Below, in pieces: positions 35,589 to 51,195 of a stretch of 53,654 bases of DNA; the first letter of the stretch is position 1; each line of letters starts with the position of its first letter. The notes beneath the pieces were generated by a model. The model saw only the letters and a list, made by a program, of their open reading frames with translations, was not told where the DNA came from and made no database searches. Position numbers and translations under genes: made by a program. The stretch is from positions 1-53,654 of the IMG/VR virus record IMGVR_UViG_3300002461_001214. The stretch is one strand, 5' to 3'. This DNA is from a virus (lineage: Duplodnaviria > Caudoviricetes).

Positions 35589-36144
35589 CGCGAACCCCGA
35601 ACAGCTCGCGGCGGAACGCGTCCTTCAACTCGGGCGTCAGGCCCTTGACCGTCGAGACCTTGTCGAACGCGGCGTTGGCCTTCTGCTTGAACTCGCTTTC
35701 CAGCTTGGTCCGGCGGACCGCCGACATGGCCTGGCCCTTGACGGTGTCGTGGAAGGCGCGCGCCAGCTCCATCGCCATCTTCGGCGTTCGCTCGGCCGCG
35801 TCCGCTTGGGTCAGCTCGAAGACGAGCATCTTGATGAACTCGCCCAGCACGATCGAGTTGTCGTCGACCTTCTCGGGGGTGAACTGGTCGGCGATGCCGG
35901 TGAAGATGTGGCGTGCTTCGTCCAGCCGGATCTGCGCCGCGCGCAGCTTGAGCGCCTTGCGGTTGAAGGCGTGCCAGGACACCGGCTCGACGCCCTTGGC
36001 CGCCAGCCGCTCGTTCAGCTCGGCGTGGATCTCGGTCTGGGTCCGCTGGCGCTGATTGAGTTCGCCGATCGCCCAGACGATGTCGTCCTGGGCGTGATCC
36101 GGCACCAGGTCGATCGAGGAGAGCCGGTTCTTGTTCCCGGCCAT
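35581..36144 (-). CDS. Mu gp27-like small terminase (DUF3486)
   Basis: RLSSIDLVP...RTQTEI...SWHAFNR; upstream of terL. Confidence 0.82.
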   Translation of the reverse strand: MAGNKNRLSSIDLVPDHAQDDIVWAIGELNQRQRTQTEIHAELNERLAAKGVEPVSWHAFNRKALKLRAAQIRLDEARHIFTGIADQFTPEKVDDNSIVLGEFIKMLVFELTQADAAERTPKMAMELARAFHDTVKGQAMSAVRRTKLESEFKQKANAAFDKVSTVKGLTPELKDAFRRELFGVRDG

Positions 36145-36146
36145 GG

Positions 36147-36446
36147 TCAACCCTCTCCGCGGGACGGCCGCTTCACGCCTTCGATGACGACGCGGCGCAG
36201 GACGTGGTCGCTGCCCTTGGCCGTGAGGCTGGCGACCCGCACCGTGCCGGCGACGACGAGGGTGACCGCGCCCATCTCGGCGAGCCAATTCAGCTCGTCA
36301 TGGACCCAGTCGCGCGACTTGGTGATGCCGTAGGATTCCAGCGCCAGGCGCAGCAGCTCCGAATTCAGCCGGCCGTCAGGCTGCTCTTCGAGAGCGCGGA
36401 GCAGGATGAGGCGCGCCTCGGCGCGCAGATGGACGTCGAAGCTCAT
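36147..36446 (-). CDS. Mu gp26-like protein
   Basis: RLILLRALEE...LNWLAEMG...LTAKGSDH...GVKRPS. Confidence 0.85.
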   Translation of the reverse strand: MSFDVHLRAEARLILLRALEEQPDGRLNSELLRLALESYGITKSRDWVHDELNWLAEMGAVTLVVAGTVRVASLTAKGSDHVLRRVVIEGVKRPSRGEG

Positions 36447-36799
36447 CGCTTGGCTTGCTCCAGCAGAAATTCCTGCAGCCGTTCGGAGATCGCCGCGACC
36501 GGCTTCAGCTGCTCGTTCAAGCCCCGCAGCTCGCCTTTCAGATCCGACAGCGAGAGCTGGATCGCGTGGACGCTGTCGCGGTCGGGCAGATGACGGAAGT
36601 CGTTCTCCAGCCTGCTGACGCGGTCCTCTACCTTGTCGACCTTCTCGATCGCGAGGGTGAACTTGCCGTCGAGCGAGGAGATGGCGCGCTCGTGATCGGT
36701 CCGGGTCACGAACTTGGTGGCGATCGCGAGGATCGCCACCTGGCTGACGAGCACCAGGGCGCTGCCATATTGCTGCAGGAAGATCATGGCGTCGTTCAC
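36443..36799 (-). CDS. Mu gp25-like membrane protein (DUF2730)
   Basis: N-terminal TM, RVSRLENDFRHLPDRD, RLQEFLL. Confidence 0.82.
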   Translation of the reverse strand: MNDAMIFLQQYGSALVLVSQVAILAIATKFVTRTDHERAISSLDGKFTLAIEKVDKVEDRVSRLENDFRHLPDRDSVHAIQLSLSDLKGELRGLNEQLKPVAAISERLQEFLLEQAKR

Positions 36800-37074
36800 G
36801 GCAAGGCTCCGTCGATGGCGGCGATCGCGGCCGCCCGTCTCGTCTCGCAGGCGCGCAGCGCGGCGCGGTCCTGCCCCATGACCGAGGTGACCTCAGCCGC
36901 GTTCATGTCCCGGTCGGGCAGCGCCACCGGCGCGGCGCAGGCACGCCTGGCCGAGGCCGGAACCTGCGGCTTCACCAGCTCCGTCCGTACGGTCGGGGGT
37001 TTATCGGGAGCCGTTGAGCAGGCGGACGCGATCGCGCCCAAGCCCGCAACGGTCGCCGCCAGCCAGAGCCGCAT
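36796..37074 (-). CDS. Putative o-spanin lipoprotein
   Basis: Lipobox-like ASAC, Pro-rich, DRAALRAC; overlaps the i-spanin gene. Confidence 0.72.
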   Translation of the reverse strand: MRLWLAATVAGLGAIASACSTAPDKPPTVRTELVKPQVPASARRACAAPVALPDRDMNAAEVTSVMGQDRAALRACETRRAAAIAAIDGALP

Positions 37075-37387
37075 TGACCTTCTCCAGTTCGTTCAAATCG
37101 CTTTGAAGCTTTGCCACGGTCTCGCTCGCGCGCGTTTCGATCTGCGAGACGGCCAGCGCCTGGGCGAGCCGGGCCTGCTCGGCGGCGAGGTTCGAGGCGG
37201 CGATCTCGGCGCGCCAATGGGCGTCGCGCTCGTTGCGCGCAGCGGTCGCGGCCGCCGCGACGACGCGCTCGAAGGCGGCGGCACCGCGCCAGTAGCCCAC
37301 GCCGGCGAGCGCCAGCAGGGCTGCAAAAGCCAGCGCGGCGAGCGCGGGCTTGGCGAAGCGCGATGCGAGGAAGGCGGCAACCATCAC
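37001..37387 (-). CDS. Putative i-spanin
   Basis: N-terminal TM + coiled coil + CGLGRDRVRLLN. Confidence 0.72.
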   Translation of the reverse strand: MMVAAFLASRFAKPALAALAFAALLALAGVGYWRGAAAFERVVAAAATAARNERDAHWRAEIAASNLAAEQARLAQALAVSQIETRASETVAKLQSDLNELEKVNAALAGGDRCGLGRDRVRLLNGSR

Positions 37388-37650
37388 CCGACCTCGCCAG
37401 ATGGCGCACGGGCCGCGCGAGGCGCCTTCGCCGGCTTAGCGCCGGCTGTCAGTTGGCTGCGCAGGTCGAAATGCCCGATGCCCTGATAGACACCGATCAC
37501 CGACGCGATCAGCACCACCATCAGCGGCACCACCACTTGCGCCATGGCGACGCCGTCATGGATCGACCAGGCGATGGCCGCCCAGGCCGGCGCCAGCGTG
37601 CCGATGACGGTGCTGCGGCTGAAGCTCCGCTTGGGCTTGATCAGCTCCAT
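37384..37650 (-). CDS. Putative holin
   Basis: 88 aa, two TM segments, basic N-terminus, in the lysis cassette. Confidence 0.6.
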   Translation of the reverse strand: MELIKPKRSFSRSTVIGTLAPAWAAIAWSIHDGVAMAQVVVPLMVVLIASVIGVYQGIGHFDLRSQLTAGAKPAKAPRAARAPSGEVG

Positions 37651-37838: not shown

Positions 37839-38513
37839 TCAGCCCTTCGCGGCTTTGGCTGCGGCGATCCGGATCACGGATGCCAACGACACCGTGACGA
37901 TATCGGTCTCCTTGCCGGTCAGGCTGGCCGAGACGGCCTTGACGGCTGCACGAGTCTTCGGCCCGAAGTCGCCATCGATCCTGCCGATGTCCTGGCCGAG
38001 CCGCGTGAGGTTTTCCTGCAGCGCCTTGACGGCGTCGCCCTTCGAGCCCGGAACAAGTGTCGCCAGCTCCCGATCCGTCGGCTGCGGCAACGGCGGATCC
38101 TTGATCGACCCGATGCCCGGATGCGTTCCCCAGGGCAGCTGGAAATGCGGGCCGTCGAAGAAGCTCGCCCAGTCGCCGCCCCATTCGAGCGGCACGCCCA
38201 TCTCGCGAGCGGCGGCTTTGAAGGCGTCGGCGATCCGATGATAGAGCGGCACCTCCCATGAGATGCGGCCGCCTACCATGGCGACTACGTCGATGGCGTG
38301 GCCGAGCCCGTTGGGCGCCGCGATGTGGCGGGACTTCAGCGTGCGCGAGGCACCCTTTTTGACCAGCTCCCGCTGGCGCGACACGGTGCGAAGGCCCTCC
38401 GTGATCTGGAAGGGCTGGGTCGTCAGCTCAGCTGCGCGCTTCACGACCTTCACGAGGTCGGGATGGACGCCGTCGAGCCGCTTGAGCGAGGCCTGTGTGA
38501 GTGTGACCGCCAT
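37839..38513 (-). CDS. Endolysin, M15-family peptidase with peptidoglycan-binding domain
   Basis: GVHPDL, EGLRT, SRH...GHAIDV, WGGDW..FDGPHFQL; DGDFGPKT. Confidence 0.9.
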   Translation of the reverse strand: MAVTLTQASLKRLDGVHPDLVKVVKRAAELTTQPFQITEGLRTVSRQRELVKKGASRTLKSRHIAAPNGLGHAIDVVAMVGGRISWEVPLYHRIADAFKAAAREMGVPLEWGGDWASFFDGPHFQLPWGTHPGIGSIKDPPLPQPTDRELATLVPGSKGDAVKALQENLTRLGQDIGRIDGDFGPKTRAAVKAVSASLTGKETDIVTVSLASVIRIAAAKAAKG

Positions 38514-38578
38514 GGCGACCTCTTCGGACAAGAGGCGCTTGACGAACCGCGTCGGCCTCGGGATGATCGGACATCCCG

Positions 38579-38621
38579 AAATTGCCGGTGGAGCAGCCCT
38601 TCAAAGAGGGTGACGCGCGTC
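38579..38621 (-). promoter_or_regulatory. Putative late promoter (lysis operon)
   Basis: GACGCGCGTC + ACCCTCTT + -10-like CAATTT at the conserved spacing. Confidence 0.75.
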
Positions 38622-38629
38622 CCTGCGCG

Positions 38630-39046
38630 TCAGAACAGCTTGCCCTGATCCTCGTCCAGCTGCCGCTGGCGCTCGGCCTTCTGACGGTGGACGGAGCGCC
38701 GGGTGATGCCGGCGCGGCGCGCGGCCTCGTTGGCGGTGGCGCCCTCGGCGAGAGCCTGCCGCACCACCGCAGCGCGGCGCCGCCGATCGCCGAGATAGCT
38801 GCCGGTAGGACCGAGCGGGATGTCGAGCTGAGCCCGCGACCGGCCGGAGCAGAAATGCTCCGAGAGCGTCTCCGCCCGCTCGCGCCCGATCGCCTTCACC
38901 AGCCAATGATCATCGCGCAGCCGCGAGGGGATCGAGGCCGCCTGGCCGCCCTTGGCCTCGGCGATCGACAGCGCCGCCTCGATGCCGACGACCTCGGCGA
39001 TCTCGGCGAGCAGGGCCGGCAGATCCGGCCAGCCGGGGCGCGTCAT
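38630..39046 (-). CDS. Mor/C-like late transcription activator
   Basis: LPALLAEIAEVVGIEAAL...GGQ..SIP and a C-terminal HTH; last gene before lysis. Confidence 0.8.
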   Translation of the reverse strand: MTRPGWPDLPALLAEIAEVVGIEAALSIAEAKGGQAASIPSRLRDDHWLVKAIGRERAETLSEHFCSGRSRAQLDIPLGPTGSYLGDRRRRAAVVRQALAEGATANEAARRAGITRRSVHRQKAERQRQLDEDQGKLF

Positions 39047-39288
39047 CGCCGCCTCCGGCTGCGTTTGCCCGGCGCCATGTCGGCTTCGAGGACGGTCACC
39101 AGGACATCGTCCTTCACGACGTATCGCAGGCCATCGGCGAGGATCACATACTCGGCGATTCCCGCACGCTCGGCCCCGACGCGGGCGCGCTCCAGCGAGT
39201 GCGACAGGGTGAGCCGCAGCGTCTCGATCTCGGCTGCGCCGGAACGGTCGAGGAAGCGCACGAGCGCATGATCGGTGATCTTCATCAT
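39043..39288 (-). CDS. Small hypothetical protein (ITDHALVRFL motif)
   Basis: Coupled ORF; DHA..R motif common in small phage proteins. Confidence 0.7.
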   Translation of the reverse strand: MMKITDHALVRFLDRSGAAEIETLRLTLSHSLERARVGAERAGIAEYVILADGLRYVVKDDVLVTVLEADMAPGKRSRRRR

Positions 39289-39677
39289 CGCGCCGCGACC
39301 CTCTTCTGCCAGGCCTTGAGCTGCTCGATCGCCTCGCGTGCCTGCGGCGGCTTGAGGAACTCCGGCGCCGAAACCTCGAAGCGTCGCTTCACCCAGGCGC
39401 GCAGGGCCTCACGGTCCAGCGGGCCTGCATGGAGAGCGCCCCATAACGCGTAGATCTTGCGGACGTCGGCGCGCTCGGCCGGCGGGCGCGTCGACTCCTT
39501 CGGCGCCCAACCCAGGCGTTTGAATTCGGCGATGACGGCGGCGGCCGCCCGATCCGACAGATCCTTCGCGCTCTCGACCTTGGCGACGCGCTGCAGCAGC
39601 GCGCGGTACTCCGCGTCCCGGAGCCCGAGTTCCTTGCGGGCGATGTGGATCTTCGCGAGCATGGCGGGGTGGCTCAT
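39285..39677 (-). CDS. gemA: GemA / Mu gp16-like protein
   Basis: AKIHIARKELGL...YRALL...SAKDLS...KIYALW...IEQLKAW. Confidence 0.88.
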   Translation of the reverse strand: MSHPAMLAKIHIARKELGLRDAEYRALLQRVAKVESAKDLSDRAAAAVIAEFKRLGWAPKESTRPPAERADVRKIYALWGALHAGPLDREALRAWVKRRFEVSAPEFLKPPQAREAIEQLKAWQKRVAAR

Positions 39678-39943
39678 CCGATGCCCATCCCTGCTTCGAT
39701 CGCCTCGACCTTGCAGCGTTCCCAGAGAGCCTCGGCCGCATAAAGGTTCCTGACGGCTTCGAGGCGCTCTGGCGATCCGCCGGGATGCCGCCAGAAGTCG
39801 CCGCCCTGATCGACCACCCGCCAGGCCCGCCGATAGGCGGACAGGGTCTCTCGCGAGACCTGGCGCCAGTGCCGGCCACAGACCCATTCGCGCCAATCCT
39901 TGCGCGAGCGACCCTTGCAGAATGGAACGCAGCAGGCTGTCAC
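39674..39943 (-). CDS. Putative zinc-binding hypothetical protein
   Basis: GTG start; CCVPFC...WVCGRHW. Confidence 0.6.
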   Translation of the reverse strand: MTACCVPFCKGRSRKDWREWVCGRHWRQVSRETLSAYRRAWRVVDQGGDFWRHPGGSPERLEAVRNLYAAEALWERCKVEAIEAGMGIG

Positions 39944-40138
39944 CGCATCGCCCTCCGCATGGCCGCGACGAGCCCGACCCGCTTTCGGGTGAGCTGCTTC
40001 AAACGGACTGCTGATGACGGTCTTGAGCCGGTCGCGCTCCGCGTCCAACGCCTCCAGCTCGCCGCGCAGCAGCAGCGCCGAGATCGCGCTGGCATCGGAG
40101 GGAGCGGGGCGGCGCGAGAGGAAGCGACCCATGTTCAT
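39940..40138 (-). pseudogene. Small coiled-coil protein, apparently frameshifted near 40005
   Basis: LEALDAERDRLK continues best as RLKQLTRKR...AMR* in another frame. Confidence 0.4.
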
Positions 40139-40809
40139 GCCCCAGTCTCGAACAGAGGCGTGGAGACGGGCGCGCCAAAGCGCATGGCGTCATCGTGGCG
40201 GGTCAGCGCCTGGCGCTGGCCGGGCGGGATCCAGAGCGGAGCGCGCGGCTCGGCACCGCGCTTCCAGCAGACCCAGCAGTAATCGGTGGCGGTCGAGCCC
40301 TCGGGCTCCCAGCGGCCCCGGTGCATCGGCACGCGCTCGACATAGTAGGCGACGACGAAGGGCGGATGGTCTCGAAACAGCTCGTAGCGCTCGATCGTGT
40401 GCAGCCACTGGGTCCGGACGAGGAGCGCTACGCCCTTCTCGGCGATCGCCAAGGCATGACGTGCGAAGCTGACGGCTGCGTTGAACGGCGGTTGGTCCAA
40501 ATCAAATCGGGGCGCAGTACGGTCAGTTGCTGCTCCAGGAAGTCCCCGACTGACCCGTAGCCGTAAGGGTGGATGTCGCTGGCGACGACGAGGTTGAAGC
40601 TCTCCGCCAACACCGAGGCCATGTGACCTTCGCCACAGGCCGGCTCCCAGATCAGATGTGAAGGCCGAGCCTCCAGCACCGGCACCGCAACGTGCTGGAC
40701 GAAGGCCCGCGTCGCCCAGGGCGGCGTCGGGAAGAAGTCGAGCGAATCGTGCGGCCGAGCGCTGTGCCGCGACGGCGGGGGAGAAGGCGAAGCTGGGCTG
40801 CTCGATCAT
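40135..40809 (-). pseudogene. N6-adenine-type methyltransferase with two frameshifts (~40755, ~40490)
   Basis: DSLDFFPTPPWAT, WEPACGEGHM, SDIHPYGYG, TN(P)PF and TATDYCW distributed over two frames. Confidence 0.78.
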
Positions 40810-40864
40810 GACCGCCTCCGCACATCGGAGACAGTCGCGGCAGCATGGGGTATGAATTGGAGGT

Positions 40865-40895
40865 GAGGACGGCGCGTTGGCCGCGCGCCGTCCTC
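40865..40895. promoter_or_regulatory. 12-bp perfect hairpin upstream of the polyproline cassette
   Basis: GAGGACGGCGCG-TTGGCCG-CGCGCCGTCCTC. Confidence 0.6.
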
Positions 40896-40932
40896 GATCC
40901 ACCCCGCGTGTTGCCACCACCCGGAGCGAACC

Positions 40933-41058
40933 ATGGACGAGACCGAGAAGCCGTCGACCAACAGCGGCGGCGACAGACCGGCGCTTGGGGGAGCCGGCCC
41001 GCGCCCGCCTCCAGCGCCGCCGCGACCGGTCGACACAGGAAAGGCCAAACCGACATGA
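40933..41058 (+). CDS. Proline-rich peptide 1 (41 aa) MDETEKPSTNSGGDRPALGGAGPRPPPAPPRPVDTGKAKPT
   Basis: GGAG RBS at 40923-40926; stop overlaps the next start (ATGA). Confidence 0.7.
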   Translation: MDETEKPSTNSGGDRPALGGAGPRPPPAPPRPVDTGKAKPT

Positions 41059-41621
41059 CCGCGCCGACGCTTTTCGATGTGAAGTTTCAGGCGCTGAGGA
41101 ATGCGCTCTACCACAAGGCCAGACAGCGCCGCCTCGACTGGTGGGCGCGTGCGGCCAACCTCGTAACCATCCTGCTGGGCTCGGCCGCGGCAGCAAAGGC
41201 GTTCGGGTTTGGACCAGCCTACTCCGAGGTTCTCATAGGTTTCCTGGTCGCAGCGGTCGGCGCCTTCCAGCTCGTCTACGACTGGTCGAATAAAGCCCGA
41301 ACGCATGAGTTTCTGCAGCGCAGGTACTATGAGGTACTGGCCAAAATCGAAGAGAGCGGCGAGGCCGATGACGGGCTTCCTGTCCGCATCAACGCCGAGC
41401 TGATCCGCATTTACGCTGAAGAGCCGCCAACGCTTCGCGCCCTCGACAGCATCGCCTACAACGAGGCTTTGGATGGCCTTGGGAGCAAGAAGGCCGACCG
41501 CCTGATCGTTTCCTGGTGGCAGTCCCTGTTGAAACACTCGTACGCTTTTGCGGAATCGCATTTCGAGACGTATCGTGAGCGCGAGATCAGACTTGGAGCG
41601 CGGGAGAAGTCTCATGGGTAA
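41055..41621 (+). CDS. SLATT-like two-transmembrane protein (188 aa)
   Basis: Short N-terminal helix (RNALYH), two hydrophobic helices, then a KARTHEFLQRRYYEVL helical region, as in SLATT 2TM effectors. Confidence 0.72.
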   Translation: MTAPTLFDVKFQALRNALYHKARQRRLDWWARAANLVTILLGSAAAAKAFGFGPAYSEVLIGFLVAAVGAFQLVYDWSNKARTHEFLQRRYYEVLAKIEESGEADDGLPVRINAELIRIYAEEPPTLRALDSIAYNEALDGLGSKKADRLIVSWWQSLLKHSYAFAESHFETYREREIRLGAREKSHG

Positions 41622-41694
41622 GAGCGGCGTCAACGTCAGTGTCGGTCCCCGAACGCCACCGCCGCCTCCCCAGCCGCCCGCACCCAAGCCGTAG
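41614..41694 (+). CDS. Proline-rich peptide 2 (26 aa) MGKSGVNVSVGPRTPPPPPQPPAPKP
   Basis: GGGAG RBS inside the 3' end of the 2TM gene; start overlaps its last codons. Confidence 0.7.
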   Translation: MGKSGVNVSVGPRTPPPPPQPPAPKP

Positions 41695-41706
41695 AGGCCG
41701 CCAGCG

Positions 41707-41793
41707 ATGTCGAGCGACCACGAGACAAAGTCTATGGGCCCCCGACCGCCACCCCCGCCGCCCCCGCCGCCGCCCAAACCGGCAACTAAATAG
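41707..41793 (+). CDS. Proline-rich peptide 3 (28 aa) MSSDHETKSMGPRPPPPPPPPPPKPATK
   Basis: AGAGG RBS; ten prolines encoded by mixed CCG/CCA/CCC codons. Confidence 0.7.
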   Translation: MSSDHETKSMGPRPPPPPPPPPPKPATK

Positions 41794-41800
41794 ATCGCCG

Positions 41801-42121
41801 TCATCGCACCGGCCCTCCGGCGGCGGCGATCGCCTCGCGCTTCGCCAGCTGCAGGCACATCTGCGCCATGGTCTCGCCGTGGCGCAGGACCGCCTCGCGC
41901 GCCTCGGCCGGCAGCTTCAGGAAGGCGCGGATTTCGTCGGCGTTCTTGTGCAACGTCTCCAACGTGCGGGCGGCCGCGTTGAGACACTCCATGTCGCGCT
42001 CGCCGAACTGGTCGCCGCGCAGTTCCTTGATCGCCTTGCCGCCGAGCAAGGCGCGCTGACGCGTCTCGGCGAAGCGGACGGCGTCGATCTGAAGCGGGAG
42101 CGGGACGATCAGCGCGGTCAT
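41801..42121 (-). CDS. Hypothetical early protein
   Basis: Coupled ORF in the early operon. Confidence 0.65.
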   Translation of the reverse strand: MTALIVPLPLQIDAVRFAETRQRALLGGKAIKELRGDQFGERDMECLNAAARTLETLHKNADEIRAFLKLPAEAREAVLRHGETMAQMCLQLAKREAIAAAGGPVR

Positions 42122-42528
42122 GCCGCGCACCAGCAGATCATGACGCCCTCGAACGCCATGTCGGGATCGGCCGCCTGTTCATGAGCGGCTTTCCAGAACG
42201 CCTGCATGTCGGCCCAGTGGAGGAAGCCGTCGGCGCGGGCGAAGTCGTCCAGCCTAGCGGCCGTGCCGAAGGCTTCGTCGGTGTCCGGCAGTTGGACATA
42301 GCCGCGGGCGATCCATAGCCGCACCGGCCGCACGGCGGTGCAGAGCTGGTCGGGCACGATCCGCCGGCACTGCTTCGTCCGCATGCCCTGATAGAGCTGC
42401 AGCAGCTCGCCCGGCCTCGCATGGCGCTTGCGCGGCGCGCGGATGGTCTGACGCTTGACGATGCCCGTGGCGGGGTGGCCGCTGGCGATCGGCTCCGCGA
42501 AGCGCTTGTTGAAGGAATAGGCCACCAT
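42118..42528 (-). CDS. ASCH-like domain protein
   Basis: YSFNKRF...KRQTIR...GELLQLYQGMRT...FARADGF. Confidence 0.78.
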   Translation of the reverse strand: MVAYSFNKRFAEPIASGHPATGIVKRQTIRAPRKRHARPGELLQLYQGMRTKQCRRIVPDQLCTAVRPVRLWIARGYVQLPDTDEAFGTAARLDDFARADGFLHWADMQAFWKAAHEQAADPDMAFEGVMICWCAA

Positions 42529-42734
42529 CAGCGCTCGCCTCCGAACAGGCTGTCGCGCTGCGCCTGGTCGCGGAGATGCGCGGCGATCGCCTCCATCAGG
42601 GCGATTTCCTCATCGGCCTTCGCCTGGCTCATTTTTCCGACAGCGACGCGGTGGGCATAGACGCGCCGCCGGAACGCGACCTCGCGCTCCGCAGCCGCGG
42701 CGAGGCGATCGAAGGTGAAGCGCGGAGCTGTCAT
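42528..42734 (-). CDS. Hypothetical early protein
   Basis: AEREVAFRRRVY...GKMSQAKADEEIALMEAI. Confidence 0.72.
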   Translation of the reverse strand: MTAPRFTFDRLAAAAEREVAFRRRVYAHRVAVGKMSQAKADEEIALMEAIAAHLRDQAQRDSLFGGER

Positions 42735-42964
42735 GACTTCTGCTCCCGTGCCGCGACGAGCTGTGCGAAGTAGCGGCCGGACGCGGTCAGCCGGGCGCGC
42801 TTCTGGCGGCGGTGCAGCGTGACGGTCGCGAGGCCTTTGTCGGACAGCCGCTCATAGATCGAGGGCCTGTCGCGGGTGACGTCGAGAAAGGTCTCGCCCG
42901 GCAGCTGCTGGAGCTTCACCAGGGCGCGCTCCTCGGGCGGCGTGAACGGGCGCAGAGCCGACAT
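42731..42964 (-). CDS. Hypothetical (wHTH-like) early protein
   Basis: RLSDKGLA...ARLTASG. Confidence 0.6.
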   Translation of the reverse strand: MSALRPFTPPEERALVKLQQLPGETFLDVTRDRPSIYERLSDKGLATVTLHRRQKRARLTASGRYFAQLVAAREQKS

Positions 42965-42965
42965 C

Positions 42966-43202
42966 TCAGTCGCCCTCCGCCATGAGCTGGCAGTCGCCGG
43001 CCGGCACCGCGAAGATCAGACCATCGTCGGTGCGTATCCGCAGGTGAGACTGGCTCGACGGCCGGATGACGCGGGCCTTGAAGACCAACTCACCTTTCTC
43101 GTGGTCGAAGGTCGTTACCAGGATCCGCGCGTCCCGAGGAAAATCCTCGGGAGCAAGTGCCTTCCGGTCGAAGTCGGTGTTGAGGATGTTATGAAGATCC
43201 AT
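42966..43202 (-). CDS. Hypothetical early protein
   Basis: ATG 43202 after GAGGG. Confidence 0.6.
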   Translation of the reverse strand: MDLHNILNTDFDRKALAPEDFPRDARILVTTFDHEKGELVFKARVIRPSSQSHLRIRTDDGLIFAVPAGDCQLMAEGD

Positions 43203-43209
43203 GGCGCCC

Positions 43210-43826
43210 TCACGCCGCCGCGAGGTCGATGACGACCGGCTCGAAGCGGTCCTGCGGCCGGGCGCGCTTGTAGAAGCGGACATATTCCTTCGTTCCGGTG
43301 ACGCGGATGGCGTCACGGATGGCGACCATGCCGCGCTTCCAGCGCTCGTCCTCGATGTCCATGCGCAGGAGCGAGAACAGTTCGGCCTTGTTGATCTGGC
43401 CGGCCTTCTCGACGTTGAAGACGCGGTTCACGAGCGCGCGGATCTCGGGCCGGCTCTCCGAGCCCCACTCGACCAGACACTCGTCGATCAGCTTCTTGGC
43501 TTCCTGGAGCTGCGGGCCGAACTCGATCTGGTCGGCGATCTGGACCTGGACCTTGTAGAGCCCGTCATAGCTCTGGAAGGTGACGTTGCCCTTCTCGCCG
43601 CCGGCGCGCGCGCCGTACTCTTGCTCCAGAAGGGATTGGAAAGCATTCAGATCCGCAAAGGTGTGGGCCTTGAAGCGCGCGATCTGGGCCGAAAGCTCGG
43701 CCGCGAAGCCGATGACCTTGCGAACCGTCTCGTCCTCCAGCTTGTCGGCCGGCTTGACCAGCTCGATTTGCCGTCGATCTCAACGGTCGCCGAGGGGATG
43801 GTGCGGTTGGGGGTTTCAAACTGCAT
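43210..43826 (-). pseudogene. DUF3164-like protein, frameshifted near 43767
   Basis: MQFETP...EIDGK, then IELVKPADKLEDETVR...GNVTFQSYDG...KEYVRFY in another frame. Confidence 0.8.
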
Positions 43827-44757
43827 GGTGCGTCTCCTGGACGGGTTCTGTTGAGGGTTCACTGAGATTGCCGTCGTCAGGGGGCGGCTCTTCGAGCGCC
43901 GCGACGGCGACCTGACAGAGCGCGACGATTTCATGGGCCGAGACGCGAACGGCTTCGCGGGACGGATGCGCCAGGACGCGCCGCGCGGTCGCGAGCGGGT
44001 CGATGGTCTGGGCGAGGCGGATCAACCCGTTGCGCTCGATGGCGACCAGCACGCCGAGCATTGCGTCGGTGTCCGTCCGGAAGCTCGGGTCGGCCTGGCG
44101 CGTATCGTCGGCCCGGCTGAGCGCTGCAAGGATCGTGGTGTGGTCGCGGTCCCCGAAGAGGCGGCCCAGCGTCGGGGTGCTGAGCCGCGTCATCTTGGAG
44201 GCGAGCCAGATCGCCGCCAGACGGGCGCGGGCAATCGGCGCCTCGCGGCGGTCGGCCAGGATGTCGTTGCGCTCGACGCCGGTGACGGCCTCTACGGCCG
44301 CGATGACGATGTCGACGGTGACGTGGCGGCAATCGACGCGCGAGATCGCGGGCCGCGACACGACGGGGAAGGTGAAGACGTTGCTGTCGCCGAAGGGCTG
44401 GGCCAGCTCGGCCAAGGTCTTTCCGAAGGCGACACGGTCAAGCCGTCCACCGGCGGGAGTCGCATCGAGCTGCGCCTGCAGGACGCGCTGCTGCGCCTTC
44501 AAAGCCGCTTGAAACGACGGCTGTGGCTCATCACCGGCGACGCGGTCCAGATCGTGCGCGACCGCGAGGAGTTCATCCTCGACCTCATCGGCCTCGGAAG
44601 CGCGCGCTTCCAGGGCGTCGGCCTTCTTCGCCATCAGCGCGAGCGCCGCCGCCATGTCGCGGCAGGCGGCGGGGCTGAGGCCGGCGCCGAGCGTGAAGAC
44701 GCCGCGAAGCTCGACGTGCAGCTGGCGCAGATCGGCAGAGAGGGGCGTGGTCTGCAT
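43816..44757 (-). CDS. Protein with a DnaA C-terminal-type HTH domain
   Basis: DILADRR...ARARLAAIWLA...LSTPTLGRLFGDRDHTTI. Confidence 0.8.
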   Translation of the reverse strand: MQTTPLSADLRQLHVELRGVFTLGAGLSPAACRDMAAALALMAKKADALEARASEADEVEDELLAVAHDLDRVAGDEPQPSFQAALKAQQRVLQAQLDATPAGGRLDRVAFGKTLAELAQPFGDSNVFTFPVVSRPAISRVDCRHVTVDIVIAAVEAVTGVERNDILADRREAPIARARLAAIWLASKMTRLSTPTLGRLFGDRDHTTILAALSRADDTRQADPSFRTDTDAMLGVLVAIERNGLIRLAQTIDPLATARRVLAHPSREAVRVSAHEIVALCQVAVAALEEPPPDDGNLSEPSTEPVQETHHAV

Positions 44758-44760
44758 GGC

Positions 44761-44982
44761 TCAGCTCCGCAGGTTCGGGTTGAGCCGGCGCAGATGGTCC
44801 AGCTCCTCGGCGCTATCGAGCGCGCAGAAGACGACCAGGCCGAACCCTCCAAGCCCAAGGCCGACCAGGCCGATCAGAGCCGCGGCGCCGATCTGGTCGA
44901 GGCCGGGAATGAGCATGCCGGCGATGAAGGGGGCCGTGACGGCGCAGCACGCGGCCAGCAGCTTGGCGACAGAGACGATCAT
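44761..44982 (-). CDS. Small two-TM membrane protein
   Basis: Hydrophobic ORF coupled by TGATG. Confidence 0.55.
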   Translation of the reverse strand: MIVSVAKLLAACCAVTAPFIAGMLIPGLDQIGAAALIGLVGLGLGGFGLVVFCALDSAEELDHLRRLNPNLRS

Positions 44983-45380
44983 CAGGCGGAGTCCTTCTGC
45001 TGGCGGTTGGGGCAACGGCGGCAGGCCCTATAGAGCCGTGCGCGCGCGGGATTGGCGGTGCTGAAGGGCTTGCCCTGGTGGTTCAGGCATTGATCCTTCG
45101 TGATCTCGCCGAGGACGGGGCACTCCGCGGTTTCACCCATGAAGGCGCCACGGATGGCGACGAAGACGCGGGCGAGATCGCCTGGATAGTTGTTGGCCAG
45201 GACGTGGGAGATGACCGCGCCGGAGTAGCCAAGGCGCTCGGCCACGGCCTTGGCCGTCTGCGCCCGGCAGGCCAGCGCCAGCGCGTGAACCTCCGTCGGC
45301 AGCGTCTCCCCCCAGGCGGCGAGCGCCTTGTCGAGTGGGTCTTGCCGGCCGGCCGAGCCGGGGATCGGGCCACGATTCAT
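44982..45380 (-). CDS. HTH/zinc-binding protein typical of Mu-like early operons
   Basis: VAERLGYSGAVIS...YPGD...CPVLGEI...C...ACRRCP. Confidence 0.8.
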   Translation of the reverse strand: MNRGPIPGSAGRQDPLDKALAAWGETLPTEVHALALACRAQTAKAVAERLGYSGAVISHVLANNYPGDLARVFVAIRGAFMGETAECPVLGEITKDQCLNHQGKPFSTANPARARLYRACRRCPNRQQKDSA

Positions 45381-45934
45381 GCGGCCCTCCCGGTCGTTTC
45401 CAGTCGGTTAAGGTTAATGGAACGCCCTAAATTGAGATCGAACACGCCGAACGTCTCAACCACCGGGGCGCGGGGACCGGTGTCCGCAGCGGGGCGCAGT
45501 CGCCACAGCCCGCCCCGTTCCGTGACGACGCCGCATCCCTGCAGGGCCCTGCAGTAAGACCGCACGGCGGACACGGTGACCTCGCACTCTTCGGTCGAGG
45601 CCGCGTCGGCGAGGTCGCCCGGCTTCCAGCTCCGGAGCTGGCGCATGGCAGCCCACATCTGGCGCTGTTGCTGGGCGCAACGTCCGTTCGTCATGCGGCT
45701 AAGGGGCGGCGCTTCGCCACCGACGAGGACCTTCAGTTGACCAGGCCGTTCGGCCTCGATCACCCGCTCGCGCTGGAGCCAGCCGATCCATTCGGCGATG
45801 GGTGGATAAGCTGCTGGTGTCAGCGACGCGATGGTCGCGACAGAAAAATGCCCATAGACCTGCGACAGCACCTGCATGGCCTGCCATGCGGTAGCGCGGG
45901 CAGCGTCGGGAAGCCTGACTGCGCTGACCATCAC
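45377..45934 (-). CDS. Winged-helix DNA-binding protein downstream of MuB
   Basis: QMWAAMRQL...YCRALQGCG...TGPRAP...VFDLN. Confidence 0.75.
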   Translation of the reverse strand: MMVSAVRLPDAARATAWQAMQVLSQVYGHFSVATIASLTPAAYPPIAEWIGWLQRERVIEAERPGQLKVLVGGEAPPLSRMTNGRCAQQQRQMWAAMRQLRSWKPGDLADAASTEECEVTVSAVRSYCRALQGCGVVTERGGLWRLRPAADTGPRAPVVETFGVFDLNLGRSINLNRLETTGRAA

Positions 45935-46704
45935 GCGGCCCTTGCGGTTTTAACGAGTTTGCGGATCTCTTCCTCAGTGCGCGCCTTTGGAGCATTGCCC
46001 GTGTGAATCCGGCCGCCGTAGTTGGCGCGACCAACCGAGGTGAGCCCGTTGAGCTGCGCGAACTCTCGGATGTGAGAGATCGATGTCGAGATCCGGCGCG
46101 CTACGCCGCCGCTTTCGACGCGCACCATCTCCAGGAGATCGTCGGCGATGGAGAGCTGGGGGGCGTAGGCTATCGCCAGCTTGCGGCTGTCGTCGAGATC
46201 GCAGGGCTGGGCCGCGACCCAATCTAGGACGCGGTCATGCACCCTCGGCGTGGGCTTCAGCTTCGAGACCAGGTCTTCCTCGCCGATGAGCACGATCGGC
46301 GTGTTGCTGTTGTCTTGCAGCTCGCGGATCAGCTCGATCCAGCCTTTGTCGATCGCCTTGTCCGCCTCGTCGATCAGCAACGGCCGATCCGGGTGCTCAC
46401 CGAGGCGCAGGATCGCCTGCTCAGCGAGGTCCGCGACCGTCCCGCGCACCTTGCCGACCCCGAGTTCACCCAGAAGCTTTTCGAGAAACTTCTTCCGGGT
46501 CCACGTCTCGCCGACCGTCAGGATCGGCGCCTGGCACTTGTTGTGGACGTAGATCGCCGCCTTCGTCTTGCCAAAGCCTGGCGGGCCATGAAAGACGCCG
46601 AAGCCCGGCAGATCGTCGTTGCGCTGCTGTAGCCTGTTGACGAGCGTCCAGAGGGCCGTCACATTCTTGAGAGGGGCGAACCTCTGCTTTTCTTTGTCGT
46701 TCAT
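45931..46704 (-). CDS. MuB-like AAA+ transposition ATPase
   Basis: Walker A GPPGFGKT, Walker B LLIDEAD, IVLIGEE. Confidence 0.93.
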   Translation of the reverse strand: MNDKEKQRFAPLKNVTALWTLVNRLQQRNDDLPGFGVFHGPPGFGKTKAAIYVHNKCQAPILTVGETWTRKKFLEKLLGELGVGKVRGTVADLAEQAILRLGEHPDRPLLIDEADKAIDKGWIELIRELQDNSNTPIVLIGEEDLVSKLKPTPRVHDRVLDWVAAQPCDLDDSRKLAIAYAPQLSIADDLLEMVRVESGGVARRISTSISHIREFAQLNGLTSVGRANYGGRIHTGNAPKARTEEEIRKLVKTARAA

Positions 46705-48941: not shown

Positions 48942-49228
48942 GTGCGACGCTCCGGGAGGAGGGCGTCGAGAACCCAATGCATCTGAAGGGCATAACGCTC
49001 CAGCTCAGCGGCGCGCTCGTTGGCTTCTTTCAACGAAAATGCAGGACGAGGAACTGTGTTAAGGGCCGCAGCCGCCTGCGCGACGTAAGCGGCGGCGCCC
49101 AAGCGCCTCATCGCTCTACTCTGAGCACGGTTGAGGCCAATTGGCGTCGGGAAAGCCACAGCCACATCGCGCACCGCATCCACGAGGCGATGGATTGCCA
49201 ATCCGATATCGTTTTCATGTGGCTTCAC
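48938..49228 (-). CDS. Hypothetical early protein
   Basis: Coupled ORF upstream of the transposase. Confidence 0.55.
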   Translation of the reverse strand: MKPHENDIGLAIHRLVDAVRDVAVAFPTPIGLNRAQSRAMRRLGAAAYVAQAAAALNTVPRPAFSLKEANERAAELERYALQMHWVLDALLPERRT

Positions 49229-50944: not shown

Positions 50945-51195
50945 CAGGCGGCCCTCTTCATCGTGCGCGGGCGGCCTCGCCGGACGAGACGCTCGCCCGA
51001 GGCAGACCAGCGGTCGGGCCAAAGGATGTGAAGCGGGATTTTCAGCGCCTTGGAGATCGCCTTCTCTGCTGCAAGCTGGGGGCGCCTGAAGGCCGCCCTC
51101 AGCGCCACGTCTGTCACGCCGTATCGATCAGCGATGGCAGGCAAAAAGCGGAAGGGCGACTTCCGAACGGCGGCAAGGATATCTGCTTCGTGCAT
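50944..51195 (-). CDS. ner: Ner-like transcriptional regulator
   Basis: ADILAAVRK...AEKAISKAL.IPLHILWPDRW. Confidence 0.82.
   Translation of the reverse strand: MHEADILAAVRKSPFRFLPAIADRYGVTDVALRAAFRRPQLAAEKAISKALKIPLHILWPDRWSASGERLVRRGRPRTMKRAA

What the first reader, a model, noticed from the sequence alone, without database searches (positions are those of the whole stretch)
40865..41793. Candidate new system: SLATT-like 2TM protein flanked by three GPR-polyproline micropeptides
Seen: a compact plus-strand cassette inside the minus-strand early operon, consisting of a hairpin, a 41-aa ORF, a 188-aa 2TM protein, a 26-aa ORF and a 28-aa ORF. All three small ORFs fall below the ORF-track cutoff, each has an RBS, and they share G-P-R-(P/T)-poly-P-(K/R)-P: GPRPPPAPPRP, GPRTPPPPPQPPAPKP and GPR-P10-KP. 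The prolines use mixed CCG/CCA/CCC/CCT codons and the N-terminal parts differ, which favours peptide-level selection over a microsatellite. Peptides 1 and 2 overlap the start and end of the 2TM gene. Established: SLATT 2TM domains are predicted membrane effectors in conflict systems, polyproline runs need EF-P for efficient translation, and Pro/Arg-rich peptides such as apidaecin bind ribosomes. No nucleotidyltransferase or SLOG partner is adjacent. Inference: a prophage defence or toxin-antitoxin-like module in which redundant peptides restrain the membrane effector, or in which polyproline stalling reports translation status. I do not recognise this architecture from any described system.
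Basis: partly seen in the sequence, partly recalled or inferred. Interest (0 to 1): 0.92.

Follow-up and report, generated by a model that had tools for sequence, protein, structure and literature searches.

The report
Proline-rich micropeptides coupled to membrane protein
A Mu-like prophage carries a small self-contained cassette in which tiny proline-rich proteins are translated together with a two-helix membrane protein, and the same unannotated pairing recurs in many other temperate phages, so it is a real module of unknown but probably lysogen-protecting function.

Summary

- **Cassette in the window:** hairpin 40864-40896, 41-aa ORF 40933-41058, 188-aa 2TM gene 41055-41621, 26-aa ORF 41614-41694 and 28-aa ORF 41707-41793. 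It lies on the + strand inside a minus-strand Mu-like provirus.
- **Recurrence:** 60 of 87 unique homologous loci carry an upstream small ORF with G-P/V-R-Q-P motifs. In 52 of those 60 its stop abuts or overlaps the 2TM start.
- **Enrichment:** the strict motif is about 720-fold enriched in these upstream zones.
- **Coding selection:** motif codons vary synonymously, and pooled dN/dS is 0.19.
- **Leader:** the 5' hairpin covaries at 9 of 9 pairs.
- **Wider range:** distant homologues in Burkholderia, Pseudomonas and Klebsiella elements also have an upstream Pro-rich ORF.
- **2TM protein:** it belongs to phrog_11791 and is SLATT-like only below threshold.
- **Context:** usually the immunity or early region.

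Function is inferred, not shown. My best reading is a lysogen-expressed membrane effector with a disordered peptide partner. I found no description of it in print.

The parts
40851..40857 (+). -10-like TATGAAT, a possible promoter of the cassette (weak, inferred)
   Evidence: Read by eye. Related leaders share the consensus TGnTAnnnT a few bases before the hairpin. The sigma-70 consensus scan found 0 sites in 40500-42200, so this is only a lead.
40864..40896 (+). G+C-rich stem-loop (14 pairs, 5-nt loop), the conserved leader hairpin of the module
   Evidence: Fold z = -3.07. In 33 aligned leaders, 9 of 9 pairs have compensatory changes. 86.9% of cells pair against 57.3% in shuffles (0 of 500 reach it) and 32-48% when partners are slid. 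No Rfam family matched. No T-run follows on either strand.
40896..40905 (+). Conserved box after the hairpin (GATCCACCCC here; family consensus TCATCCCC)
   Evidence: Alignment A4 consensus CCTnTCATCCCC, with nearly invariant C columns. Its role is unknown.
40923..40926 (+). Shine-Dalgarno GGAG of peptide 1, 6 nt before the ATG
   Evidence: Relatives have AAGGAGACGAT at the same place.
40933..41058 (+). Peptide 1, 41 aa, ...GAGPRPPPAPPRP...; its stop overlaps the 2TM start (ATGA)
   Evidence: It is positionally equivalent to the upstream peptide ORF found in 60 of 87 unique homologous loci. The GPRPP variant is shared with the nearest relatives L001, L002 and L104.
41055..41621 (+). 188-aa two-transmembrane-helix protein, phrog_11791, SLATT-like
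   Evidence: phrog_11791 E = 7.1e-21. SLATT_1 E = 0.0012 and 8xMP E = 0.0023, both below cut-off. 69 homologues were found, and 2,675 cluster representatives at E <= 0.001. The AF2 model has pLDDT 94.6 and is all-helical. Hydrophobic spans at 33-53 and 55-77.
41614..41694 (+). Peptide 2, 26 aa, MGKSGVNVSVGPRTPPPPPQPPAPKP; its ATG overlaps the 2TM stop (ATGGGTAA)
   Evidence: GGGAG lies 7 nt upstream. No counterpart downstream of the 2TM gene was found in 101 related loci or in L104, so its conservation is untested.
41707..41793 (+). Peptide 3, 28 aa, MSSDHETKSMGPRPPPPPPPPPPKPATK
   Evidence: GAGG lies 9 nt upstream. At DNA level it resembles peptide 2, so it is probably a duplicate. Conservation is untested, as for peptide 2.

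Best explanation
The cassette is an autonomous two-part gene module (a moron) of temperate, mostly Mu-like, phages.

Shown:
- A conserved leader (a -10-like box, a covarying hairpin, a C-rich box and a strong Shine-Dalgarno) precedes one or more small ORFs.
- These ORFs encode cationic proteins, poor in hydrophobic residues, of about 55 aa. They carry 1-4 copies of the short motif G-P/V-R-Q/P-P and a proline run 2-4 residues before the stop.
- That stop abuts or overlaps the start of a gene for a SLATT-like protein with two membrane helices and a helical cytoplasmic domain, so the two are translationally coupled.
- The peptide ORFs evolve under purifying selection at the amino-acid level.
- The module sits in the immunity or early region, on the strand opposite to the early (lytic) operon here. 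In two distant phages it sits in the operon of the repressor.

Inferred:
- The module is expressed in the lysogen.
- The 2TM protein is a membrane effector that excludes or aborts superinfecting phages.
- The small protein is its obligate partner, as regulator, antidote or adaptor. The repeated motif would be the binding unit. Three one-motif peptides in this window would stand in for one three-motif peptide elsewhere.
- The terminal proline run next to the start of the 2TM gene additionally makes 2TM synthesis depend on completed, EF-P-assisted translation of the peptide.

My confidence is about 0.9 for 'real, selected, coupled two-gene module' and about 0.4 for the functional reading. The figure given is for the whole statement.
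For: Recurrence:
- A loose motif ORF lies next to the homologue in 74 of 101 loci.
- After removing duplicates, 69 started upstream ORFs were found in 60 of 87 unique loci.
- Of the other 27 loci, most show variant Pro-rich ORFs by eye (for example ...GNQPPPP..KK), and 4 show nothing.

Enrichment of the strict motif G[PV]RQP: 113 hits in 27,057 nt of upstream zones against 6 in 1,037,207 strand-nt elsewhere.

Amino-acid-level selection:
- Gly uses all four codons (26/39/24/24).
- Arg uses both CGN (75) and AGR (38).
- Gln uses CAG 77 and CAA 36.
- Pooled pS is 0.55 and pN 0.17, giving dN/dS 0.19 over 13 independent pairs. L089 against L090 has 15 synonymous and 1 non-synonymous difference.

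Coupling:
- The peptide stop lies within -6 to +9 nt of the expected 2TM start in 52 of 60 loci.
- ATGA-type overlaps are common and are present in the window.

Peptide nature:
- Median length 55 aa, 20% Pro, 11% Gly, median net charge +5.
- Cys occurs in only 2 of 69, so these are not lipoproteins.
- Motifs per locus: 2 (22 loci), 3 (22), 1 (13), 4 (3).
- 8 loci have 2-3 peptide ORFs.

One natural in-frame peptide-2TM fusion exists (P0090).

Leader: consensus and covarying hairpin.

Deep conservation of the pairing:
- phiE255 gp48, and the same 62-aa ORF unannotated in BcepMu, have PPPPPLPTRD and overlap the homologue's start.
- Pseudomonas phage TC7 has an unannotated 52-aa ORF with RPRQPPRP...PPPPRRDP that ends 1 nt before a likely start.
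- A Klebsiella plasmid has a related 66-aa ORF.

Context:
- The window is a Mu-like provirus: transposase, MuB-like protein, Mor-like activator and endolysin are all on the minus strand.
- In related loci the commonest neighbours are ParB-like (20 loci), CI-like repressors (14 and 13 loci), a CII-like regulator (11), a Ner-like repressor (8) and a Mu-type transposase (7).
- The window's own neighbours are not conserved beside homologues, as expected of a mobile cassette.
- In BcepMu, phiE255 and TC7 the homologue lies downstream of the cI/C repressor gene on the same strand.

Membrane-effector likeness:
- SLATT_4 matches 15 of 43 family members, SLATT_1 13 of 43 and 8xMP 12 of 43, all sub-threshold.
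- An Atlas structural neighbour cluster named as a SLATT protein has TM 0.82.
- PADLOC gives faint echoes: 2TM effector and RT-associated SLATT, 1 member each of 43.
Against: - No expression, toxicity, binding or phage-resistance data exist. No RNA run holding the stretch was listed.
- The SLATT relation is weak. All HMM scores are below curated cut-offs. hhalign against 7 bona fide SLATT_1 domains gives 49% probability over the 2TM part only. Foldseek against the PDB gives nothing with E <= 0.001.
- The window protein matches no PADLOC model.
- In BcepMu, phiE255 and the Klebsiella plasmid the homologue lies directly before a holin/endolysin or lytic transglycosylase cassette. A lysis role is therefore not excluded.
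- The nearly invariant residues of the 2TM family are rich in Arg, and the peptides are cationic too. Simple charge attraction between them is therefore unlikely (my inference).
- The C-terminal Lys codons and the position of the proline run can be explained at nucleotide or ribosome level: a purine-rich Shine-Dalgarno, and AAA-TGA creating the ATG. That favours a cis role for at least the tail.
- The two downstream peptides are unique to this window, and their conservation could not be tested.
- The motif count within the window alone equals the chance expectation.
- Protein-guided codon alignments bias dN/dS downward for the more diverged pairs.
Confidence: 0.45

Rival explanations
1. The small ORFs are mainly cis-acting leader ORFs. 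Ribosomes pause on the proline run just before the stop/start overlap. This sets, in an EF-P- or proline-dependent way, how much of a potentially harmful membrane protein is made by termination-reinitiation. The peptide product itself has no function.
For: - Stop-start adjacency in 52 of 60 loci.
- The last PP lies 2-4 residues before the stop in 31 of the 40 adjacent peptides that have PP. A ribosome paused there would cover the 2TM start (inference from the known ribosome footprint size).
- The C-terminal K/E/G codons double as a purine-rich Shine-Dalgarno and create ATGA overlaps.
- From established knowledge (recalled): consecutive prolines need EF-P, and proline-rich leader ORFs such as mgtP regulate downstream genes.
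Against: - The best-conserved feature is the G-P/V-R-Q-P motif. It lies 10-50 residues before the stop, is repeated, and is kept through synonymous and CGN/AGR changes.
- 8 loci have extra peptide ORFs that do not abut the 2TM gene, and the window has two after it.
- 12 of 52 adjacent peptides have no PP at all.
- One natural fusion keeps the peptide as part of the protein.
- RNAalifold on the 33 aligned leaders predicted no second or alternative stem (attenuator). The cis and trans roles may also coexist.
Confidence: 0.2
2. The module belongs to the lysis programme. The 2TM protein would be a holin-, antiholin- or lysis-timing-type membrane protein, and the Pro-rich peptide an accessory, loosely comparable to the proline-rich Rz1.
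For: - In BcepMu and phiE255 the homologue is followed by gp20, holin, endolysin and Rz/Rz1 on the same strand.
- In the Klebsiella plasmid it precedes a lytic transglycosylase gene.
- Small 2TM proteins are typical holins, and Rz1 is proline-rich (recalled; BcepMu gp24 is annotated so).
Against: - In the window the cassette is on the strand opposite to the endolysin (37839-38531, minus), about 2.3 kb away, and has its own leader.
- In the alphaproteobacterial loci the recurrent neighbours are repressors, ParB-like proteins, regulators and transposase. No lysis-gene family was among the ten commonest neighbour clusters annotated.
- The peptides lack a lipobox: Cys occurs in 2 of 69.
- The protein has a cytoplasmic domain of about 110 aa with conserved motifs, unlike holins.
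- BcepMu-type phages have their own annotated holin and spanins.
Confidence: 0.12
3. The peptides are the active agents and act on a host target, for example the ribosome, a chaperone or nucleic acid, in the way of proline/arginine-rich antimicrobial peptides. The 2TM protein would serve as their immunity, anchoring or export partner.
For: - The peptides are cationic (+5 median), have few hydrophobic residues, and are Pro/Arg-rich with PRxP-type motifs.
- Some variants have Lys/Ala-rich, histone-H1-like N-terminal parts (L046, L052, L092). That hints at nucleic-acid binding.
- The motif is repeated, as in multivalent linear motifs.
Against: - There is no signal peptide and no export machinery.
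- There is no sequence relation to known PrAMPs.
- The strict genetic coupling to one membrane protein family over deep divergence points to a shared function rather than a free-acting peptide.
Confidence: 0.1
4. Chance: G+C-rich DNA gives proline-rich open frames, and the three small ORFs are not genes.
For: - The window is 67% G+C.
- The motif count in the window (3) matches a Markov expectation of 3.1.
- A long spurious ORF runs antisense through the cassette.
Against: - About 720-fold enrichment of the strict motif next to homologues.
- Codon-level evidence of amino-acid selection, and dN/dS 0.19.
- Strong Shine-Dalgarno sites and start/stop overlaps.
- The same pairing in beta- and gammaproteobacterial elements.
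- For peptides 2 and 3 alone, chance or a recent duplication remnant is not excluded.
Confidence: 0.03

Closest known systems
SLATT-domain 2TM effectors (SMODS/SLOG-associated; also with TIR and reverse transcriptases). The family concept is recalled from Burroughs et al. 2015; the NCBIfam and Pfam models were tested here.
   Same: An N-terminal helix followed by a two-helix membrane hairpin. They are carried on mobile elements. Sub-threshold HMM matches are consistent across the family. There is an Atlas structural neighbour named SLATT, and PADLOC gives faint echoes.
   Different: Scores are below every curated cut-off. Profile-profile probability is only 49% and limited to the 2TM part. The protein has its own conserved cytoplasmic domain (LRNALYH, ARTHEFLQRR, EPPTLRALD). 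None of the six flanking genes scanned matched a nucleotide-signal, TIR or RT family. The partner is a proline-rich micropeptide.
phrog_11791 (PHROGs family of unknown function); BcepMu gp19 / phiE255 gp49
   Same: The window protein is a member (E = 7.1e-21). BcepMu gp19 and phiE255 gp49 are 25-26% identical homologues in Mu-like phages and have an upstream Pro-rich ORF.
   Different: No function is attached to the family. The small upstream ORF is annotated only in phiE255 (gp48) and not in BcepMu.
Lysogen-expressed exclusion genes beside repressors, such as lambda rexAB/sieB and P22 sieA (recalled)
   Same: Membrane-protein genes placed in the immunity region and transcribed with or like the repressor. 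The position here is analogous.
   Different: No sequence relation was found. An exclusion phenotype was not tested. None of those systems has a proline-rich micropeptide.
Proline-rich leader and arrest peptides (mgtP of mgtCBR; RAPP-type ApdP/ApdA) and EF-P-dependent polyproline pausing (recalled)
   Same: A small ORF with consecutive prolines directly upstream of a membrane-protein gene. The proline run sits close to the downstream start.
   Different: The motif is repeated and lies far from the stop. Extra copies are not adjacent to the regulated gene. No attenuator structure was predicted in the aligned leaders. The peptide is under amino-acid selection along its length.
Rz1 o-spanins and proline/arginine-rich antimicrobial peptides such as apidaecin and oncocin (recalled)
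   Same: Small, proline-rich, cationic products; Rz1 is phage-encoded.
   Different: There is no lipobox Cys (2 of 69 contain Cys). There is no signal peptide and no sequence similarity, and these peptides are not embedded in an Rz gene.
Pfam PF24838, 8xMP (octameric membrane protein family)
   Same: A weak match over the helix-plus-2TM part (E = 0.0023; 12 of 43 family members match).
   Different: The score is below the gathering cut-off (18.2 against 30 bits). I could find no paper on the family.

Membership tests
phrog_11791 | Significant match to the family profile over most of its length | tested here: met
   E = 7.1e-21, residues 8-161 on profile positions 12-164 of 173.
SLATT (NCBIfam SLATT_1/SLATT_4; Pfam PF18181) | HMM score at or above the curated cut-off | tested here: not met
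   SLATT_1 scores 18.8 bits against a cut-off of 41, and SLATT_4 scores 14.2 against 55. Across the family, 13 and 15 of 43 members match at E <= 0.01 (best 3.7e-06 and 1.6e-05). For the window protein both scores are below cut-off. Pfam SLATT_1 matches 1 of 43. PF18181 also found nothing in 5 genomes that carry homologues.
SLATT | Helix followed by a two-helix transmembrane hairpin | tested here: met
   Hydropathy spans at 33-53 and 55-77. The AF2 model has helices 6-49 and 56-75, pLDDT 94.6.
SLATT | Profile-profile similarity to bona fide SLATT_1 domains | tested here: inconclusive
   hhalign of A1 against 7 SLATT_1 domains taken from 7 of 301 genomes gave probability 49%, E = 1.7e-4, over 54 columns (residues 19-72) only.
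SLATT | Genomic association with a SMODS, SLOG, TIR or reverse-transcriptase partner | tested here: not met
   Five flanking proteins have no Pfam match, and the upstream minus-strand gene is a frameshifted methyltransferase. In related loci the recurrent neighbours are phage regulators, ParB-like proteins and transposase.
Pfam 8xMP (PF24838) | HMM score at or above the gathering cut-off | tested here: not met
   18.2 bits against 30. 12 of 43 family members match at E <= 0.01.
Known anti-phage defence systems (PADLOC-DB 2.0) | Match of any component to a PADLOC model | tested here: not met
   0 families for the window's 2TM protein, peptide 1 and two neighbours. Across 43 family members there are 3 single weak hits.
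Toxin-antitoxin module | Toxicity of one product neutralised by the other | not testable with these tools
   Only the gene order (small ORF first, coupled translation) is compatible.
Rz1-type o-spanin | Lipoprotein signal with a lipobox Cys | tested here: not met
   There is no Cys in the window's three peptides. Cys occurs in 2 of 69 family peptides.
Translational arrest / leader peptide | Ribosome stalling on the nascent chain that controls the downstream gene | not testable with these tools
   The position of the proline run is compatible. No stalling data exist.

The most novel reading that the evidence does not exclude
This is a previously unrecognised kind of phage-borne system in which a multivalent proline-rich micropeptide (G-P-R-Q-P repeats) is both the sensor and the brake of a membrane pore. 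The peptide's synthesis depends on EF-P-assisted, uninterrupted translation, and it is made only together with the pore protein. Any takeover or shut-off of host translation by a superinfecting phage would therefore deplete the disordered peptide and release the pore. The cell's translation status would thus be read directly as an infection signal. Copy number of the motif, not of the gene, would set the threshold (three one-motif peptides here, one three-motif peptide elsewhere).
Probability: 0.15. Interest if true: 0.9.

Novelty: new variant of a known kind. Interest (0 to 1): 0.72.

Why it matters
- **An overlooked small-protein family.** It defines a conserved family that is missed or left unnamed.
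- **A large partner family.** The small proteins are tied to a large family of membrane proteins on mobile elements, with 2,675 cluster representatives at 50% identity.
- **A tractable candidate.** The cassette is under 1 kb with its own leader, so it is a practical candidate for a new lysogen-encoded exclusion or abortive-infection mechanism.
- **A natural test case.** It allows two questions to be asked: how polyproline/EF-P-dependent translation and translational coupling are used in regulation, and what a bacterial G-P-R-Q-P linear motif binds.
- **Annotation.** It gives annotators a concrete rule: look for a Pro-rich ORF ending at the start of phrog_11791 genes.

Tried and rejected
- **Complex prediction** of the 2TM protein (A1) with peptide 1 (A2): no support, score 0.01 against a mark of 0.32, no verdict either way.
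- **AF2 of the natural fusion P0090:** the peptide part stayed at pLDDT 50-59 with no secondary structure. That fits disorder and says nothing on binding.
- **Dropped alignment:** a first alignment for that fold (A5) put the peptide rows across the 2TM part, so I dropped it.
- **Structure and sequence searches:** Foldseek against the PDB gave no match with E <= 0.001; the best hits were coiled helical proteins. A PDB sequence search with the profile gave 3 hits, all E > 0.5.
- **Rfam** on the window and 10 loci: no family.
- **Promoter/terminator scan:** 0 promoter-like sites, and 1 terminator-like site on the minus strand at 41060-41043 against 1.5 expected.
- **Megablast** of 38000-45000 against phage records: no match.
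- **Search for close relatives** to test peptides 2 and 3. The metagenome scan gave one locus at 53% identity (L104). The viral scan with the single protein gave none.
- **Sequencing runs:** no RNA holder was listed. Contigs of X5 and X6 span the stretch with 0 differences, and X8 and X9 cover parts of it. No variants were found, so there was no substitution pattern to read.
- **Literature** (I saw listings and abstract starts only; I read no paper). None of the listed papers bears on this module:
  - '8xMP': 12 papers.
  - 'GPRQP': 5 papers.
  - 'SLATT' + 'prophage': 15 of 135 listed.
  - 'BcepMu' + 'gp19': 5.
  - 'SLATT' + 'proline-rich': 10 of 214 listed, mostly false word matches.
  - 'octameric membrane protein': 4 listed.
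  - 'SLATT' / 'abortive infection' / 'membrane' / 'small protein': 12 of 217 listed.
  - I did not ask for supplementary files. They could hold relevant gene lists.
- **Rejected readings:**
  - An N-terminally extended 258-aa protein from ATG 40845. Homologues align from residue 1-9 of the 188-aa form, and the upstream frame holds the peptide in another frame.
  - Rz1-like lipoproteins (no Cys).


Full report
**What is in the window**

- A 14-bp G+C-rich stem-loop lies at 40864-40896. The 101-nt stretch 40840-40940 that holds it folds at -50.2 kcal/mol, z = -3.07.
- It is followed by GATCCACCCC and a GGAG 6 nt before the ATG of a 41-aa ORF (40933-41058).
- The TGA of that ORF overlaps the ATG of a 188-aa ORF (41055-41621).
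- The last codons of the 188-aa ORF overlap the ATG (41614) of a 26-aa ORF that ends at 41694.
- A 28-aa ORF follows at 41707-41793.
- The three small products contain GPRPPPAPPRP, GPRTPPPPPQPPAPKP and GPR-P10-KP.
- The 188-aa protein has two moderately hydrophobic spans, 33-53 and 55-77. With an alignment of 43 homologues it folds into a confident all-helical model, pLDDT 94.6.

**The setting**

The window is an IMG/VR provirus record, 67% G+C, with an estimated completeness of 91%. Its genes run on the minus strand:
- Mu-type transposase, 46773-48977.
- MuB-like transposition protein, 45931-46704.
- ParB-like protein, 50048-51022.
- Mor/C-like late activator, 38630-39046.
- Endolysin, 37839-38531.
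- Small terminase, 35581-36288.

The cassette therefore lies antisense inside the early region of a Mu-like prophage.

**Is it more than chance?**

Within the window alone the motif count is not remarkable. G[PV]R[QPT]P occurs 3 times in six frames, and a second-order Markov model gives 3.1. The signal is elsewhere.
- All three hits fall within 800 nt on one strand around one gene. By my own arithmetic, the chance that two further random hits land within 800 nt of the first on the same strand is about 2 in 10,000.
- More importantly, relatives of the 188-aa gene carry the same kind of ORF.

**Comparative evidence for the small ORFs**

I collected 69 homologues and 101 loci that encode one: 65 from named alphaproteobacterial genomes and 36 from viral contigs.
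- A proline-rich frame lies within 400 nt of the gene in 37 of 101 loci, upstream in all but two.
- An ORF with the loose motif G[PVIA][RKN][QNPT]P lies next to the gene in 74 of 101.
- After removing duplicates (87 unique loci), 69 started upstream ORFs with a near-identical loose motif (Thr also allowed at the second position) were found in 60 loci. Most have an AAGGAGACGAT Shine-Dalgarno.
- Of the remaining 27 loci, most show variant proline-rich ORFs by eye (for example ...HGNQPPPPPPRKK). Four show nothing.
- The strict motif G[PV]RQP occurs 113 times in 27,057 nt of upstream zones, against 6 times in 1,037,207 strand-nt elsewhere in the same loci.

The codons show selection on the amino acids.
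- Gly uses all four codons.
- Arg uses both CGN (75) and AGR (38).
- Gln uses both of its codons.
- Thirteen independent pairs of peptide ORFs give pooled pS 0.55 and pN 0.17, so dN/dS is 0.19. One ungapped pair has 15 synonymous and 1 non-synonymous difference.

The peptides are short, cationic and poor in hydrophobic residues.
- Median length is 55 aa, with 20% Pro, 11% Gly and a median net charge of +5.
- They are almost free of Cys and hydrophobic residues.
- Consensus: M...S-x-GPRQP...GPRQP-x-x-P-x-P-x-x-PPP-x-K.
- Loci carry 2 or 3 motifs in 44 of 60 cases, and 8 loci split them over 2-3 ORFs.
- The window's GPRP form is shared by its nearest relatives L001, L002 and L104, which are 53-54% identical.

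**Coupling**
- The peptide stop lies within -6 to +9 nt of the expected 2TM start in 52 of 60 loci.
- Many loci end ...AAA-TGA, which creates the ATG.
- The last Lys/Glu/Gly codons are purine-rich and can serve as the Shine-Dalgarno of the next gene. The 'KK' tail may therefore be a nucleotide-level constraint.
- The last Pro-Pro lies 2-4 residues before the stop in 31 of the 40 adjacent peptides that have one. This position would let a paused ribosome cover the 2TM start (inference).

**A conserved leader**

Thirty-three leaders, including the window's, align to this pattern: TGnTAnnnT, GGCGG, a hairpin, CCTnTCATCCCC, about 20 nt, AAGGAGACGAT, ATG.
- The hairpin has 9 predicted pairs, all with compensatory changes.
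- 86.9% of cells pair, against 57.3% in shuffles (0 of 500 reach it) and 32-48% for slid partners. The covariation score is 0.69 against 0.20.
- Pairing is kept almost only by Watson-Crick pairs: 88 two-sided changes and 1 one-sided change. I cannot explain this. It fits a DNA palindrome, or a stem needed on both transcripts, as well as an RNA stem.
- No Rfam family matches.

**Depth of the pairing**

tblastn found 25-30% identical homologues in three further groups.
- *BcepMu and phiE255 (Mu-like Burkholderia phages).* A 62-aa ORF with PPPPPLPTRD overlaps the homologue's start. It is annotated as gp48 in phiE255 and is unannotated in BcepMu.
- *Pseudomonas phage TC7.* An unannotated 52-aa ORF (RPRQPPRP...PPPPRRDP) ends 1 nt before a likely start.
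- *Klebsiella plasmids.* A 66-aa ORF related to BcepMu's overlaps the start.

One database protein, P0090, is an in-frame fusion of a two-motif peptide with the 2TM domain. It is the only one among the roughly 210 family proteins I held. The 2TM family itself is large: 2,675 representatives at E <= 0.001, and 1,917 at E <= 1e-10.

**What the 2TM protein is**

It is a member of phrog_11791, of unknown function (E = 7.1e-21). The relation to SLATT is consistent but weak.
- SLATT_1 gives E = 0.0012 and SLATT_4 gives E = 0.029, both far below the cut-offs.
- 13 and 15 of 43 family members match these models, 12 of 43 match Pfam 8xMP, and 1 of 43 matches Pfam SLATT_1.
- hhalign against seven bona fide SLATT_1 domains gives 49% probability over the 2TM part only.
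- An Atlas structural neighbour cluster is named as a SLATT protein, TM 0.82.
- There is no PDB relative by fold or by sequence.
- PADLOC gives nothing for the window protein and three stray weak hits among 43 members.

I therefore call it SLATT-like and do not file it as a member.

**Where the module sits**
- The window's neighbours are not found beside homologues.
- In related loci the commonest neighbours are ParB-like proteins (20 loci), CI-like repressors (14 and 13), a CII-like regulator (11), a Ner-like repressor (8) and a Mu-type transposase (7).
- In BcepMu, phiE255 and TC7 the homologue follows the repressor gene on the same strand.
- In BcepMu, phiE255 and the Klebsiella plasmid it is also directly followed by lysis genes.

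**How it most likely works**

Shown: a self-contained cassette; small proteins under amino-acid selection; obligatory start/stop coupling to a two-helix membrane protein; residence in the immunity or early region, on the non-lytic strand here.

Inferred: expression in the lysogen; a membrane effector used against superinfecting phages; and the peptide as its partner, with the motif as the binding unit.
- The equal motif dosage in different architectures argues for a trans-acting product. So do the non-adjacent extra ORFs and the one fusion.
- The position of the proline run argues that the tail also gates 2TM translation in cis.
- I put the functional reading at about 0.4, and the existence of a selected two-gene module at about 0.9.

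Rivals: a purely cis-acting leader (0.2), a lysis-programme role (0.12), a host-directed peptide (0.1) and chance (0.03, which still applies to peptides 2 and 3 only).

**Points against my reading**
- There are no expression or phenotype data.
- Every link to SLATT is sub-threshold.
- The conserved residues of the 2TM family are Arg-rich and the peptides are cationic, so charge attraction between them is unlikely.
- Lysis genes are adjacent in some phages.
- The two downstream peptides occur only here, and I could not test them in close relatives.
- dN/dS from protein-guided alignments is biased low for the diverged pairs.

**Novelty**

I found no paper that describes a proline-rich micropeptide paired with a SLATT-like protein. 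The searches were made, and I saw listings only. The peptide family has no name or Pfam family in the protein collection: 17 profile hits, named 'hypothetical protein' or not at all.

I rate it a new variant of a known kind, namely a mobile-element 2TM effector with a partner. The boldest reading not excluded is a translation-status-sensing peptide-pore system.

Noticed in passing
window 40135-40810 (-): The DNA methyltransferase gene just upstream of the cassette (phrog_799) is split by a frameshift. 40428-40760 matches profile positions 208-290, and 40135-40521, in another frame, matches 291-402. The ATG at 40810 is in yet another frame relative to the first piece, read.
   Followed up: partly
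window 43210-43431 (-): This 73-aa ORF matches only the C-terminal third of DUF3164 / phrog_846 (positions 125-193 of 194 and 136-206 of 207). It is a second apparently truncated or frameshifted early gene, so the provirus may be decaying or the assembly may carry indels.
   Followed up: no
L102 4793-4981 (BcepMu); L113 2305-2463 (Pseudomonas phage TC7); L114 2275-2475 (Klebsiella plasmid): Unannotated Pro-rich small ORFs lie directly upstream of the 2TM homologue in published records. The annotated start of TC7_041 is probably about 28 codons too far upstream.
   Followed up: partly
P0090 (233 aa; compare L072 2798-2992): A natural in-frame fusion of a two-motif G-x-R-Q-P peptide with the 2TM domain. 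It is the only one among the roughly 210 family proteins held. In the AF2 model its peptide part is disordered.
   Followed up: partly
L046, L052, L092 (flanks of the 2TM gene: upstream in L046 and L092, overlapping its 3' end in L052): Variant partners whose N-terminal part is Lys/Ala-rich and histone-H1-like (AKKA repeats). They end in GPGV(R/I)(P/K)PP-type motifs. This hints at nucleic-acid binding in some lineages.
   Followed up: no
alignment A4 columns 28-38 with 52-62; window 40864-40896: The conserved hairpin keeps pairing almost only through Watson-Crick pairs: 88 two-sided changes and 1 G-U-type change in 297 cells. This is unusual for an RNA stem and is compatible with a DNA palindrome or a stem used on both strands.
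   Followed up: partly
window 36455-37486 (+): A second + strand ORF (343 aa, GC3 0.76) inside the minus-strand provirus has no PHROGs or Pfam match.
   Followed up: no
window 40806-41987 (-): A 393-aa open frame runs antisense through the whole cassette (poly-Gly opposite the poly-Pro codons). The same mirror ORF clusters across 66 related loci. It is a by-product of the conserved sense genes and could mislead gene callers.
   Followed up: partly
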